Shown piece by piece: positions 11,965-50,809 of a stretch of 64,000 bases of DNA. The DNA is from Octopus vulgaris (Eukaryota). Below the pieces are notes generated by a model. It was not told where the DNA came from and made no database searches. It was given only the letters and a program-made list of their open reading frames with translations. Each line of letters starts with the position of its first letter. Within the stretch, counting starts at the first letter, position 1. The DNA lies in NCBI GenBank assembly GCA_951406725.2, contig OX597821.1:63860001-63924000 (forward strand), given 5' to 3'. A program made the translations under genes and the position numbers.

Positions 11965-12399
11965 ATGTATGTATGTATGTATGTATGTATGTATGTATAT
12001 GTGACTTGTTAGCGCTGTTGGACTAAATGGACGCTGATCTGGGGCTATTTCAGTCTTAATAGTCATTTTTGCCAGCGAAGTGGATTGCAGCAACGTAAAC
12101 CTTTTTGCCGGAGGACACACGGGAATCGAATCTACTAGCTTATGATCGAGAGCCTAGTTGCCTAAAGACTAAACCACTGGCTTCTTCGGAGAATCCCTAA
12201 AATGTTTTACAAATTTTCAATGTTCCGGAACTGAAATTAAATAAAGAGTACCTTTGGATTTGGAACACGCAAATCGGTCCCAAATTATTCTTTCTTCGAA
12301 AGAACAAACATTTTAAAACTTTAGTCCATGTCTGTCGTATAGCCTAATAAGTGATACTAATAGATACGAGTATATACAATATGGATATAAGAGTTTTAA

Positions 12400-12599
12400 T
12401 ACAGTTCCATATTTAAGAGATGAGGAATTATGTACATTATTTACATTATTTAGTTTTGACGAATATTTGTCCTCATCTTGTTTGTTGTCAATACAACGTT
12501 TCAGCTGATATACCCTCCAGCTTTCATCGGGTGTCATGGGGAAATTTCGAACCTGAGTGCTCATTCCTAAGGTATTTTTCGATGTTATTTTTTTTATTA

Positions 12600-12671
<72 letters not shown>

Positions 12672-12859
12672 CTATTATTATTCAGGTCACTGCCTGGAAT
12701 CGAACTCGGAATCTTGGGGTTAGTAGCCCGCGCTCTTAACCACTATGCCATATGCCCGTGCACTAGTGGTTAAGAGCGCGGGCATATACTGACCCTAAGA
12801 TTCGCTTCCAGGCAGTGATCTGGATAATAATAATAATAATAATAATAATGATAGTAATA

Positions 12860-12936
<77 letters not shown>

Positions 12937-13199
12937 CTTTCCTCTCCACTCCTTTTCTGCTTGGCACTGACAACTTTATCTGACATGCTAAATAGAACTG
13001 GATGTGGATAGAAATGTTACAGCAAAACAATCAGCTACCTCTTAAATATGGATGACCTAAACTATACGCTACAAATGATAAACAACTGGAAACACTACTA
13101 AAGTCAAGACACCCTATGAATGCTGGAGGGTATATGAGCCGAAACGTTCTGTTAACAACAAACAAGATGAGGACAAATATCTGTCAAATGTAAATAATG
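12400..13199. mobile_element. Inverted dimer of a tRNA-headed element with (AAT)n spacer and HHR-like tail (family D); 12-bp TSD
   Basis: Minus copy 12400-12758 and plus copy 12764-13199 lie head to head; taagagttttaa is duplicated at 12388-12399 and 13200-13211. Confidence 0.85.
12934..13104 (+). mobile_element. R4/Dong-like RT fragment nested after the (AAT)n of the family D right arm
   Basis: Translation LSSPLLFCLALTTLSDMLNRTGCG*KCYSKTISYLLNMDDL / YATNDKQLETLLK; homologous to the 660-830 minus-strand segment. Confidence 0.8.
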
Positions 13200-13229
13200 T
13201 AAGAGTTTTAAGTTCTGCCTTGTCATACA

Positions 13230-27848: not shown

Positions 27849-27896
<48 letters not shown>

Positions 27897-27901
27897 GAAG
27901 G

Positions 27902-27952
27902 AGCTTCTACAGGACTAGAACTGTTTCATTCAAGAGAAATCTTCAGGAAGCT
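27902..27952 (-). ncRNA. Type I hammerhead ribozyme, intact core
   Basis: Exact reverse complement of 30028-30078. Confidence 0.88.
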
Positions 27953-28149
27953 AGTTAACAAGAATTGTATTGGCATTTATACATTTAGGCAGGTTTATAG
28001 GGGTGGTGGTGGGGGACTTTTTGGGGGTAGGCATAGCGCAAAAAAGTCATACTTGGGGAAGTGGTCAAGGAGTCAGTGGTAAATTAGATAGAAGAATAAA
28101 TAAAAGAATAAAAAAAGAATAAAAAAATATAAAATATAAAATATAAAAG

Positions 28150-29802: not shown

Positions 29803-30027
29803 TGAGAATTTCCTTATTTACCTAAAACTCTATTCTTCTATATAATTTTATATTTTTTTATTCTTTTTTTATTCTTTTATTTATTCTTCTATCTAATTTA
29901 CCACTAACTCCTTGACCACTCCCCCAAGTATGATTTTTTTGCGCTATGCCTACCCCCAAAAAGTCCCCCACCACCACCCCTATAAACCTGCCTAAATATA
30001 TAAATGCCAATACAATTCTTGTTAACT

Positions 30028-30078
30028 AGCTTCCTGAAGATTTCTCTTGAATGAAACAGTTCTAGTCCTGTAGAAGCT
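30028..30078 (+). ncRNA. Type I hammerhead ribozyme, intact core
   Basis: agcttc-CTGAAGA-t ttc tctt gaa t-GAAA-cag(ttctagtc)ctg-TA-gaagct: 6-bp stem I, 4-bp stem III, GUA cleavage triplet; predicted cut after 30072. Confidence 0.88.
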
Positions 30079-30253
30079 CCTTCTATATAATAAATTAATT
30101 TTACTCTGCTATGTATTGAGTACCTTATTTACTGTGGTTAACCCCGAATCAACCCGGGACCTACATATATATATATATATATATATGTACATATATATAT
30201 ATATATGTACATATATATATACATACATATATAAACATATATATATATACATA

Positions 30254-35504: not shown

Positions 35505-36168
35505 ACAAAGTAAATTTGTAATGTTGCACACAAGTGAAAATATATATGAAAGAAGTTTTGAAAATGCAATTTTAAAGATGTTTATTGACTTAACCGGTTT
35601 CACTTCTTTAGAAAAAGATTGTCAAAAGCAAAAGGTAAAGCTGTGTATAAGCATTGTTGTGTTGAGTACTGGTTATCACAAAAGTATTAAAATACAGTTA
35701 TACTTTCTTTGATAATGATAAGAAAATGTTAAAAACAGTTTACAAGGAAGTATTCAAGAAAGTATTCAGAACGGGACTACAGTAATTATTATGAGTTCAA
35801 TAAAAATCATGTTTGTTTGGTAGTATATATATATACACAGAGATATATTTAAGAATTTACAAAAAATTAGACCAGTCTGATATTCTCTGTTTTGTCAGAA
35901 AATGTCAGAGAGACAGGTCAGTTATTCCTCTCCAATTTTTTGTAAATTCTTAAATATATCCCCTACCAAACAAACTTGATTTTAATTGAACTCATAATAT
36001 TTATTGTAGTCCCGTTCTGAATACTTTCTTAAATACTTTCTTGTAAACTGTTTTTAATATTTTCTTATCATTATCAAAGAATGTATAATTGCATTTTAAT
36101 ACTTATGTGATAACCAGTACTCAACACAACAAAGCTTATACAAAGATTTACTTTTTGCTTTTGACAAT

Positions 36169-36172
<4 letters not shown>
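35505..36172. mobile_element. Long inverted-repeat unit in (TA)n (arms 35614-35871 / 35931-36172)
   Basis: Diverged ~250-bp arms with a 60-bp spacer; the left arm extends outward and holds a variant HHR-like motif on the minus strand at 35588-35629 (gctt-TTGACAA-stem-GAAA-ccgg-TT-aagt). Confidence 0.8.
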
Positions 36173-36226
<54 letters not shown>

Positions 36227-39657: not shown

Positions 39658-39843
39658 AAAAACAACATCGAAAAATGTCTTAAGAATGAGAACCCAGGTT
39701 CGAAATTTCCCTAAGACACCTGATGAAGGCTGGAGGGTATATCATCCGAAACGTGGTAACAACAAAGATGAGGACAAATATCCGTCAAATCTAAATAATG
39801 TAAATAACGTATATAATTCCTCATCTCTTAAATATAGAACCGT
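39658..39843 (+). mobile_element. Family D tail, solo copy with best HHR-like core
   Basis: CTGATGA(39720-39726)-a-ggctg..catcc-GAAA-cg...cg-TC, plus the ~33-bp terminal tail. Confidence 0.85.
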
Positions 39844-41134
39844 ATCAACAAAGCAATTTGCATTATCATAATATCATTCACAACACGAGTAACACTAGTC
39901 GTGAAAATAAATGAGTCGTTCCTACACAAAACGTGTGTTCACCTTCATGTACATAAGTACGTATAAATATTCTTGATGATATACTTCGTGACAATAATCG
40001 AACTAAAGACTCTCACTGTACTGAATCCGCTGCTCAAACATATTGGTATATCAATATCCAATCCGGTGAAGCCAACTGCTCTCTGCAATAACCTCATTTT
40101 CGGAATTTTGCATGGGCAATGGCCAGCGAGGGATTTTCTCTTTGTCATTATCTTCGTCATGCGTGTGCGCGCGTGTGTCGAGGTTCATAAATTATCTTAT
40201 TCAGGTTGCTATGGTGGTGAGTAATAAAGGTTACTTTATAGCTAATGATTTGGGGACCAAGACGAAAGTAAATAGGTAAGTTTTTTCTTACACACATGCT
40301 TCCATTCGCATACCCACATCTGTATATACATATTTGTATGTACATATTTGCGATAATGAATTTATTTGATTTACTATAATGATAATTATAATCAGATATA
40401 TTGGTGTTTATGATATTATTTAAAGGTTTGATATCTTTTATACTTCATAATAGCTTGAAATGGGAAACTTTAATTATGTATTCAAGATGTGTAGTTTATG
40501 TCAAAAGTATATTTTCAGAAAAGGTACGCCAGTGCTCCTAACAGGTTTGTTCCTTTCGTAAGAATTAATTGAAAAAGGACCACCTTAGTGATGCTGTTGT
40601 TGTTCTTGTAATTGTTTAACGAGTGATTGACAATGGTTGAATAAATCTTACAGTCAAAGACGCACGAATCGTGACATTTCATTCATAATGTATTTAAGAT
40701 AATTTTACACAACTGGAGTATGATATAAAAGACATGCTGTTGCTAATGTTAGTAAGTCGAGCAACTACGTAGCGGTTTCGTAATTCCTGGCACTATACGA
40801 CGTATTGTTTCTATTTTCGCAATAAAATATCATAAAATATTTTAACGTCTTCTTTCGAGAATTTTATGCTAGTTCCATCATAAACATGCATAACCAGTCC
40901 GTCTGGCATTGTCCTCTACCGCTAGGATCAATCATTGAGTTCGGAGATCTAGTTTACTCCGTTTGAACCATCGTTGGTGTCTTAGTTTGACATGGTGAGG
41001 GACACGGACAGCGCCCCTGTGCCCTTGTTTGAACAGATCTTGTTTTTAGTTCTGATGGGTGCCCTCACACATTCCTCCAAGTTCCAGGAATCTGAACCAA
41101 GAGGGGAGCCGATTTAGTCGCCGACGACCCGACC

Positions 41135-49695: not shown

Positions 49696-50280
49696 TAATC
49701 GTATCAACATGACTGCGTGGCTTTGGCCTGTCGTTAGTGGTGCTGATGCTATAATTTTCATTATTTATGTTGTTTCTGCAACAGATGTCAACGTTGCTGC
49801 TTTTGGATTTTGGCATTAATGTCACGTGTTGCTGTGGTTGTCAGGATATTGTTTGGCAGGATATTGTTTCGTTTTTCTAATTTTCTTCACTGCGTGACAT
49901 GTGATTGTTGTTGTCGTTGTTGTTGTTGCTGCTGCTTCTATCGTACAGCTATGATGTTTCTTTCATGGTGAAAGAAATGAGACAGTTATAGAAAATCATT
50001 CTCGTAATCGTTATCTGAAAACATATACCATCTATCAGCACTGACGTGTTTGCTTTTGTTTATCAAAAGCAGTTTGATTTCGAGGAAAACGTTGACAAAT
50101 TTACACCTGATCGAAAAACACAAAGGGACTGATAAGTTCTTCAGGATCTTATTAGTTAAGGAACAAAATGGAACAGAAGATTTGTAAGACGAGGTTTTAA
50201 GACACAGTTAAAACAAACAAGAATACATAAGTAATTCTGACTCAGAGGCGTCTTACGAATACAATACCGTAATAACAACA

Positions 50281-50510
50281 GTTTCTATATTTAAGAGATG
50301 AGGAATTATGTACTTTATTTACATTATTTACAGTCGACGGATATTTGTCTTCATCTTGTTTGTTGTTAACACAACGTTTCGAATCCAGGTTAAAAATTTC
50401 CCAAAGACACCTGAAGAAGGCCGGAGAGTATATCAGCTGAAATGTTGTGTTAACAACAAACAAGATGCGGACAAATATCCGTCGAATGTAAATAATGTAA
50501 ATAATGTAAG
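50281..50510. mobile_element. Family D tail as an inverted pair with short TSD
   Basis: Minus copy 50281-50381 with terminal tail, plus copy 50382-50509 without tail; taacaaca at 50273-50280 and 50511-50518. Confidence 0.85.
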
Positions 50511-50809
50511 TAACAACAAAAGTAGTAATAATAGTAATAATACTTTTATATAAATTTTGTCTCATAGTCAGCAATGCGAGAGATGGGGAAGTCGATTACA
50601 TCAACCCCAGTACTTAGCTGGTTACTCATTTTAGCGAACCCGAAAGGATAAAAGACAAAGTCAGCCTCGGTAGAGTTTGAACTCAGGACATAAATACGCT
50701 AAGCCTTTTGGCCGGCGTGCTAACGATTCTACCAGATCAGTACTTTAATAATGGACCAAATGCCGCTAAGCATTTTGCCTGGCATAGTAACGATTCTTCT
50801 AAGCACTTT

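What the first reader, a model, noticed from the sequence alone, without database searches (positions are those of the whole stretch)
50273..50518. Independent second locus repeats the same family D inversion geometry
Again the left minus arm carries the terminal ~33-bp tail and the right plus arm stops at ...aaataatgtaa, matching the end of the right arm near 13200. A TSD-like taacaaca flanks the pair (up to ~12 bp with one indel). The same endpoint at two loci implies a defined RNA end or priming site, i.e. a mechanism rather than random rearrangement (inference).
Basis: partly seen in the sequence, partly recalled or inferred. Interest (0 to 1): 0.7.

Follow-up and report, generated by a model that had tools for sequence, protein, structure and literature searches.

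The report
Back-to-back Penelope retrotransposon end pair
This 230-base palindrome is two cut-short copies of the end repeat of a protein-coding Penelope-type jumping gene, joined head to head with a 32-base tail on one side only, which is a published hallmark of these elements; the family's unusual trait is a tRNA-like start in that repeat that likely served as its promoter.

Summary
The geometry is real. Window 50279-50508 holds two 5'-truncated arms of one repeat joined head to head; only the left arm has the 32-nt tail, and a 10-bp target duplication (one mismatch) flanks the pair. The repeat is the pseudo-LTR of a Penelope/Poseidon-type retrotransposon: 17 of 19 ORF copies that reach the ORF end run straight into it. 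Of 100 arms, 39 end at the tail tip and 58 within the (AATAATGTA)n tract. Corrections: the short end is a zone, not a point (the two window loci differ by one 9-nt unit); the tail falls on either side equally; neither end is the RNA end. No empty site was found here, but two insertions into a host repeat confirm the duplication. Additions: 35 of 39 pairs carry exactly one tail, arms share alleles, and the tail-less end shows target microhomology, which suggests double priming on one RNA. The pseudo-LTR opens with a tRNA-like A/B-box block where most long arms stop, hinting at Pol III transcription; earlier scan notes already said this, and the focal pair lacks that block.

The parts
50269..50278 (+). 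Left copy of the target-site duplication (10 bp)
   Evidence: 1 mismatch to the right copy. Runs X6 and X8 read A at 50268, which would extend it to 11 bp; X4 reads C like the window
50279..50310 (-). Penelope 'tail', 32 nt, present on this arm only; in the full element it is part of the ORF's 5' region
50279..50381 (-). Tailed arm: pseudo-LTR positions about 186-287, 96% identical to the family majority; holds only the 3' half of the hammerhead motif
50381..50382 (.). Head-to-head junction; 1-2 bases fit both arms
   Evidence: sequence
50382..50508 (+). Tail-less arm: pseudo-LTR positions about 129-256, about 90% identical to the family majority
50406..50451 (+). Decayed minimal hammerhead motif: helix I 5 bp, CUGAAGA, extra A, helix II, GAAA, 2-nt helix III, predicted cut after 50446
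   Evidence: own descriptor scan against the features in PMC4209133; no Rfam hit
50491..50508 (+). Two AATAATGTA units, the zone in which tail-less arms end; in frame with the ORF (Asn-Asn-Val repeats)
50510..50519 (+). Right copy of the target-site duplication (A at 50509 can be assigned to either side)
12388..13211 (.). Sister insertion: exact 12-bp duplication (12388-12399, 13200-13211), tailed minus arm 12400-12760 with the tRNA-like head, tail-less plus arm 12764-13199 interrupted by about 170 nt of foreign sequence
12683..12760 (-). tRNA-like head of the pseudo-LTR (A-box and B-box at tRNA spacing), 98% identical to the majority; absent from the focal pair
39658..39847 (+). Third family copy in the window: single arm with tail plus a few bases of the ORF continuation

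Best explanation
The locus is one insertion of a Penelope/Poseidon-type retrotransposon, made of two 5'-truncated copies of its pseudo-LTR joined head to head, likely because the element's enzyme nicked both target strands about 10 bases apart and primed a cDNA from each nick. Shown here: the identity of the repeat, two end classes, target duplications of mostly 11-13 bp, one tail per pair, allele sharing between arms. Taken from published work on a relative (PAc): both strands are nicked and extended, and reverse transcription starts at two internal RNA sites that bracket the tail. Inferred: one nick primes at the distal site (sharp end, tail included), the other anneals by 2-3 bases to the AATAATGTA tract (fuzzy end, no tail), usually on the same RNA or source copy; the two cDNAs stop independently and are joined at their 3' ends. 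Most products are short because the start sites in the 5' pseudo-LTR lie under 290 nt from the RNA's 5' end, which is inferred to be set by a tRNA-derived internal promoter.
For: L279 is a near-complete insertion: inverted tail-less pseudo-LTR, truncated direct pseudo-LTR whose tail reads into the ORF, ORF, 3' pseudo-LTR with tail. RVT_1 hit E 5.8e-8; C-terminus nearest to GIY-YIG clusters, score 0.97, and aligns to the Pfam-confirmed GIY-YIG of L178 (E 3.9e-5, probability 70%). Of 29 ORF-anchored loci, 19 reach the ORF end and 17 of these continue into the unit; 15 of 29 have an inverted family arm at the 5' break. Bimodal 3' ends in 100 arms; tail end within -1 to +3 of GAACTG in 35 of 44. 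34 of 35 opposite-strand neighbours are head to head. One tail in 35 of 39 body-anchored pairs, against about 48% if arms chose independently at the 40% tail rate. Shared non-majority alleles within pairs 48, permuted 16.5 +/- 3.7, 0 of 1000 (79 pairs). Junction ambiguity at the tail-less end 2.47 nt vs 1.15 +/- 0.20 swapped (0 of 5000, n=47), at the tail end 1.16 vs 0.69 +/- 0.14 (4 of 5000, n=44). Single-copy empty form for L034 and L169 found 37 and 54 times in fetched loci, double form 0. Literature: PMC11167929, PMC3846280, PMC8557442.
Against: The focal duplication alone is weak (6.6% of controls reach its score), and no empty orthologous site was seen. [quoted passage not shown] The microhomology test used pairs chosen for strong duplications, which can inflate it. 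Allele sharing is incomplete (site 163: 7 of 11 A-bearing pairs concordant) and could also come from co-active subfamilies or gene conversion. 37 of 89 pairs have no duplication scoring 9 or more. Pfam GIY-YIG did not hit the element's own C-terminus at E 0.01. No intact ORF among the listed best hits (longest open frame 569 aa). Rfam found no hammerhead.
Confidence: 0.8

Rival explanations
1. Fold-back: one cDNA is primed at the tail site, turns back on itself at a hairpin or microhomology, copies itself, and the copy joins the second target end by annealing in the AATAATGTA tract.
For: Predicts one tail per pair, shared alleles and microhomology at the tail-less end, all observed. Arms that reach the head often show a perfect palindromic junction (16 arms end at position 3, nearly all preceded by the antisense copy). 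PMC3846280 proposes self-priming from palindromic junctions.
Against: A self-copy cannot hold sequence missing from its template, yet the tail-less arm reaches further 5' in 49 of 79 pairs (tailed arm in 22, equal in 8), including the focal pair (129 vs 186). It survives only if the loop is later deleted asymmetrically.
Confidence: 0.25
2. Family D is a separate tRNA-headed SINE that borrows Penelope enzymes, or short copies now replicate on their own as such.
For: tRNA-like head with A/B boxes; 29 of 38 arms that reach the head stop there; short copies far outnumber ORF-linked ones (9 of 100 arms enter the ORF).
Against: The same head follows the ORF stop in 17 of 19 ORF copies, and the tail continues into the ORF start. 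Short copies end at the tail, so they would lack the downstream ORF segment that PAc needs as template (first 172 nt of its ORF; PMC11167929). Among 41 single-orientation insertions, shared upstream sequence was the ORF or host LINE ends.
Confidence: 0.12
3. The pile-up of 5' ends at the head comes from a hairpin that stalls or captures the RT on a longer Pol II transcript; the tRNA-like block is a passenger, not a promoter.
For: A 10-bp imperfect hairpin spans the ORF-proximal edge of the head; 5' palindromes are described in rotifer pseudo-LTRs (PMC3846280); Drosophila Penelope uses a TATA-less internal promoter likened to those of LINEs (PMC2377424); an uncapped Pol III RNA is hard to translate (general knowledge); A/B boxes are barely better kept than the rest of the head (5.4% and 4.9% vs 7.4% non-CpG mismatches).
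Against: 41 of 134 arms end at positions 4-10 and only 2 between -13 and 2, a sharp left edge 13-14 nt upstream of the A box; no run of four T in the 2,623-nt majority and 0.57 vs 1.64 expected per kb after codon shuffling.
Confidence: 0.4
4. Two independent insertions, a later rearrangement, or a DNA-transposon/MITE with terminal inverted repeats.
For: The pair is palindromic; 41 of 84 body-anchored insertions have one orientation only.
Against: One duplication encloses both arms in 52 of 89 pairs; 34 of 35 pairs are head to head; termini are asymmetric and inner breakpoints vary; family density is low (0 copies in 20 random 10-kb stretches).
Confidence: 0.02

Closest known systems
Poseidon of Anolis carolinensis (PAc), Penelope/Poseidon clade (PMC11167929; main text read, parts 1-2 of 4)
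   Same: ORF starts inside the pseudo-LTR near a hammerhead; two internal start sites bracket the tail; both target strands are nicked and extended; AT-rich targets (duplications here 77% A+T).
   Different: No tRNA-like block is mentioned in the text I read. PAc initiation is reported as not homologous to the target, whereas the tail-less end here shows excess microhomology. PAc's ORF begins at helix II; here the first in-frame ATG is about 35 nt upstream of the core.
Adineta vaga Pen2a/Pen2 insertions (PMC3846280; passages)
   Same: Inverted pseudo-LTR shorter by the tail, 31-bp one-sided tail coding for ORF residues, 8-10 bp duplications, 5' palindrome, head-to-head arrangement.
   Different: TATA/Inr-like promoter motifs rather than A/B boxes; few copies; duplications here are mostly 11-13 bp.
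Drosophila virilis Penelope (PMC2377424; abstract and Discussion)
   Same: Promoter lies in the pseudo-LTR formed by partial tandem; 34-bp repeat at the ORF ends.
   Different: TATA-less internal promoter with a spliceosomal intron; no tRNA-like part in what I read. I did not test for an intron here.
Minimal hammerheads of metazoan PLEs (PMC4209133; passages)
   Same: Extra base between positions 9 and 10.1, G10.1-C11.1 pair, palindromic 15.2-16.2.
   Different: Cleavage triplet is GUU; activity untested; arm 5' ends are only mildly clustered near the predicted cut.
L1 twin priming (recalled, not read)
   Same: Second nick primes internally on the RNA by microhomology and gives an inversion within one target duplication.
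   Different: L1 arms are adjacent non-overlapping parts of the RNA; here both arms copy the same region.
tRNA-derived SINEs, including octopus OK/OR1/OR2 (names from PMC4758252 passage and recall; original paper not held)
   Same: tRNA-like head with A/B boxes followed by a retrotransposon-derived 3' part.
   Different: Here the head is built into the autonomous element's own repeat. I could not compare sequences with OK/OR1/OR2, Repbase or Dfam.

Membership tests
EN+ Penelope-like elements (Penelope/Poseidon) | Reverse transcriptase ORF contiguous with the repeat | tested here: met
   RVT_1 E 5.8e-8; 17 of 19 ORF ends continue into the unit
EN+ Penelope-like elements (Penelope/Poseidon) | C-terminal GIY-YIG endonuclease | tested here: met
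   Atlas top clusters GIY-YIG at 0.97 (15-27% of members); profile match to L178 GIY-YIG E 3.9e-5; direct Pfam scan negative
EN+ Penelope-like elements (Penelope/Poseidon) | Pseudo-LTR from partial tandem, overlapping the ORF start | tested here: met
   Tail reads into ORF in L007, L015, L045, L144, L279, L329; frame open from unit position 86
EN+ Penelope-like elements (Penelope/Poseidon) | Inverted 5'-truncated pseudo-LTR at the 5' junction | tested here: met
   51 of 100 arms; 15 of 29 ORF loci
EN+ Penelope-like elements (Penelope/Poseidon) | 30-40 bp tail on one end only | tested here: met
   31-34 nt; 35 of 39 pairs
EN+ Penelope-like elements (Penelope/Poseidon) | Target-site duplication | tested here: met
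   52 of 89 vs 2% control; two paralogous empty sites; focal site alone is modest
EN+ Penelope-like elements (Penelope/Poseidon) | Minimal hammerhead motif in the pseudo-LTR | tested here: met
   Own descriptor; core positions 2.4% mismatched vs 4.4% around; Rfam negative; cleavage untested
EN+ Penelope-like elements (Penelope/Poseidon) | No zinc-finger linker between RT and EN (separates it from Neptune/Nematis per PMC8557442) | tested here: met
   Absent by eye in L279 translation, present in L178 and other families
EN+ Penelope-like elements (Penelope/Poseidon) | Phylogenetic placement among named Penelope/Poseidon RTs | not tested
   18 homologs at 55-69% identity carried no names; no tree built
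tRNA-derived SINE (SINE2) | tRNA-related head with A and B boxes | tested here: met
   Collinear with genomic tRNAs, best z 8.1 to tRNA-Arg(TCG) among 25 distinct sequences of six isotypes; ARAGORN and Rfam do not call it
tRNA-derived SINE (SINE2) | Separate non-coding unit whose head is absent from the autonomous partner | tested here: not met
   Head directly follows the ORF stop in ORF-bearing copies
tRNA-derived SINE (SINE2) | Transcription by RNA polymerase III | not testable with these tools
   Only contigs were available; indirect evidence
L1-type twin-priming inversion | Arms are non-overlapping segments of one RNA | tested here: not met
   Arms duplicate the same region; feature recalled
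MITE / DNA transposon | Symmetric terminal inverted repeats with fixed ends | tested here: not met
   One-sided tail, variable short end and variable inner breakpoints

The most novel reading that the evidence does not exclude
An autonomous Penelope retrotransposon that captured a tRNA gene as an internal Pol III promoter, purged oligo-T terminators from its whole 2.6-kb unit, and inserts by double priming on a single RNA (distal site from one nick, microhomology-primed proximal site from the other), which would explain the long-unexplained one-tailed inverted pseudo-LTR and the flood of SINE-like stubs.
Probability: 0.35. Interest if true: 0.7.

Novelty: new variant of a known kind. Interest (0 to 1): 0.38.

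Why it matters
The layout itself is known, so the locus adds no new system. Its value is statistical: PMC8557442 calls the origin of PLE tandem/inverted structures undefined, and thousands of short pairs allow it to be tested. One tail per pair, allele sharing and asymmetric microhomology are predictions that the PAc in vitro system could check directly. A protein-coding retrotransposon read by Pol III would blur the LINE/SINE divide (PMC5786205 passage: LINEs Pol II, SINEs Pol III), but that rests on indirect evidence and was already noted several times in this scan.

Tried and rejected
Rfam scans of the window and of 6 loci: no tRNA or hammerhead match, only simple-repeat and hairpin hits. 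ARAGORN on 7 loci: none. Free-energy folds of 5 stretches: z between -0.43 and 0.99, uninformative. Search for the partner through Pfam GIY-YIG: 53 loci examined were mostly other (zinc-finger-linker) families, and the one family copy among them (L240) was a chance neighbour; the partner was found instead from shared upstream sequence. A pattern for non-TAA upstream context gave 28 hits and no partner. My first reading, a separate SINE, was dropped. Enrichment of 5' ends at the hammerhead cut: 19 of 158 ends in positions 181-200, not a sharp peak, and part of the set was selected with that junction. Empty orthologous site: contigs of 3 related organisms cross from the unique left flank into the tail, and one from the right arm into the right flank; no joint skipping the pair among the rows shown, 169 rows not shown. 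No RNA holder listed for the locus; 3 guessed-RNA runs were contigs only and cannot show starts or ends. Two metagenome scans for relatives found nothing. Random sampling: 0 copies in 20 x 10 kb, so the window's 3 copies are a local excess. Literature searches without a report of a tRNA-headed pseudo-LTR: (open-access library only; Repbase, Dfam, subscription papers and supplements were not seen and may hold this family).

Full report
Setting. The window lies in a 2.8-Gb, 227-contig genome, rich in microsatellites. I infer an octopus-type animal genome from size and repeats; earlier scan notes also call it octopus. No call names the species.

Observation. The self-alignment shows inverted arms spanning 50311-50508. 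The left arm continues outward by 32 nt (50279-50310), the right does not. Its score is reached by 6.6% of 302 swapped-flank controls, so it is modest alone. The sister locus has an exact 12-bp duplication (12388-12399 / 13200-13211), and its right arm ends one 9-nt unit earlier than the focal arm. The two ends share a phase of a tandem repeat, not a position.

Family census. Exact matches in the genome: 5,159 for a 26-nt tail word, 7,377 for a 30-nt body word, 2,931 for a 22-nt head word, 0 for reversed controls. I examined the first 100 listed body matches, all on contig C1: 39 end at the tail tip, 58 in the AATAATGTA tract, 1 has a partial tail, 2 are other. In 89 inverted pairs from mixed selections (duplicate loci removed; L007 contributes two rows) the tail is left in 43, right in 38, absent in 6, on both in 2; those two read on into the ORF. 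In body-anchored loci alone 35 of 39 pairs have one tail. 34 of 35 opposite-strand neighbours are head to head. Duplications scoring 9 or more occur in 52 of 89 pairs against 2% of controls; 36 of the 52 are 11-13 bp as maximally defined. For two insertions into a host repeat the single-copy empty form occurs 37 and 54 times in the fetched loci and the double form never (up to 5 mismatches allowed; two further rows matched only their own locus). At the focal locus three related organisms carry the insertion, so no empty site was seen. Twenty random 10-kb stretches held no copy.

Identity. I first read the 290-nt unit (palindrome, tRNA-like head, (TAA)n, hammerhead motif, tail) as a SINE. Nine single-orientation copies then proved to share upstream sequence that translates as the end of an RT-endonuclease ORF. 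L279 is a near-complete insertion with inverted tail-less repeat, truncated direct repeat reading into the ORF, ORF and 3' repeat. The RT hits RVT_1. The C-terminus is nearest to GIY-YIG clusters and aligns with a Pfam-confirmed GIY-YIG, though Pfam misses it directly. It lacks the zinc-finger linker seen in other families of this genome, which by PMC8557442 points to Penelope/Poseidon; no tree was built. Of 29 RT-anchored loci, 19 reach the ORF end and 17 run into the unit; 15 have an inverted arm at the 5' break. The frame is open from unit position 86 with an ATG at 124 and runs through the hammerhead motif, the 9-nt repeats (in frame) and the tail. Both end classes are therefore inside the transcript. 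The listed best RT hits show no intact ORF, and arms are a median 95% identical to the majority, so the family looks decayed.

What is known. PMC3846280 (passages) describes an inverted pseudo-LTR shorter than the direct one, a 31-bp tail on one side and 8-10 bp duplications. PMC8557442 (passages) generalises this and says the cycle behind it is undefined. PMC11167929 (main text) shows a Poseidon protein nicking and extending both strands and starting reverse transcription at two internal sites whose interval is the tail. PMC4209133 (passages) defines the minimal hammerhead, whose features the unit has; Rfam does not detect it.

Mechanistic additions. Arms of one pair share non-majority alleles (48 vs 16.5 +/- 3.7 permuted; divergence 7.6% vs 8.4%, 2 of 1000; 79 pairs), but not always. 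The tail-less arm reaches further 5' in 49 pairs, the tailed arm in 22, equal in 8, which a simple fold-back of the tailed cDNA cannot give. The tail end is sharp (35 of 44 within -1 to +3); the short end spreads over 12-36 nt past the anchor (n=40). Target/element ambiguity is 2.47 nt at the short end against 1.15 in swaps, and 1.16 against 0.69 at the tail end; my first control ignored chance inward extension and was replaced, and selection for strong duplications may still inflate the result. The simplest model is two primed cDNAs, usually from one RNA or source, one started at each site and joined at their 3' ends. This is inference.

The tRNA-like head. It aligns along its length with genomic tRNAs, best tRNA-Arg(TCG), z 8.1, among 25 sequences of six isotypes, so the donor is not settled. 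A and B boxes (consensus recalled) sit 45 nt apart. Of 38 arms that reach position 25, 29 stop at 1-25 (3.05 per 100 nt vs 0.13-0.38 in the neighbouring intervals; the linker interval, 0.95, is inflated by chain breaks). The left edge is sharp at positions 3-4 (mixed set of 134, some ORF-linked arms mis-scored by indels). The majority has no run of four T in 2,623 nt (25 of 300 dinucleotide shuffles and 2 of 300 mononucleotide shuffles do as well). Natural ORF pieces have 0.48 per kb and no T5 in 50 kb; other ORFs 2.52 per kb; codon shuffling expects 1.64. The copies descend from one ancestor, so this is about p 0.02, and a few LINE ORFs also had none. A hairpin stop remains a serious rival. 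The focal pair does not contain the head.

Earlier notes. Several unreviewed scan notes on other pieces of this genome reach the same reading. I saw them after reaching it (notes); they are not independent support. One suggested microhomology priming, which prompted; one pointed to PMC2377424.

Verdict. Real feature, known mechanism class, corrected in detail. New variant because of the tRNA-headed pseudo-LTR. Interest 0.38.

Noticed in passing
window 27885-28135 / 29845-30095: Inverted pair, 251 nt, 98% complementary; the minus strand shows a CUGAAGA...GAAAC motif by eye. Possibly a young inverted pseudo-LTR pair of another family.
   Followed up: no
window 35609-36177: Another inverted pair, 227-nt arms at 91%, unrelated to family D.
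   Followed up: no
window 12935-13104: About 170 nt of foreign sequence inside the sister locus's right arm after the (TAA)n linker; translation resembles a frameshifted LINE RT motif (recalled).
   Followed up: partly
L080, L082, L090, L140, L165, L350, L354: Arms fused at the (TAA)n linker to non-LTR elements, consistent with TAA-targeting LINEs inserting into the linker (R4/Dong label recalled).
   Followed up: partly
L178:880-5330 and about 20 listed loci with 781-aa open frames: A Neptune-like PLE family with intact RT-zinc finger-GIY-YIG frames, an upstream 347-aa ORF and a U3-A8-type hammerhead variant; apparently young. At least three more such families.
   Followed up: partly
L279:876-900 (minus strand, between ORF stop and head): The roughly 25 nt between the ORF stop and the head resemble a decayed inverted copy of the head's start (by eye), perhaps a relic of how the tRNA block was captured.
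   Followed up: no
L007, L015, L045, L144, L329: Short partial tandems in which the tail reads 72-385 nt into the ORF and then jumps to a second pseudo-LTR; exact tail-to-ORF 30-mers number only 3 in the genome.
   Followed up: partly
window 50570-50800: Neighbouring copy of a different abundant repeat, SINE-like (depth); unrelated to the pair.
   Followed up: no
L206:138-2854: Cluster of seven tRNA calls, mostly tRNA-Cys, within 3 kb.
   Followed up: no
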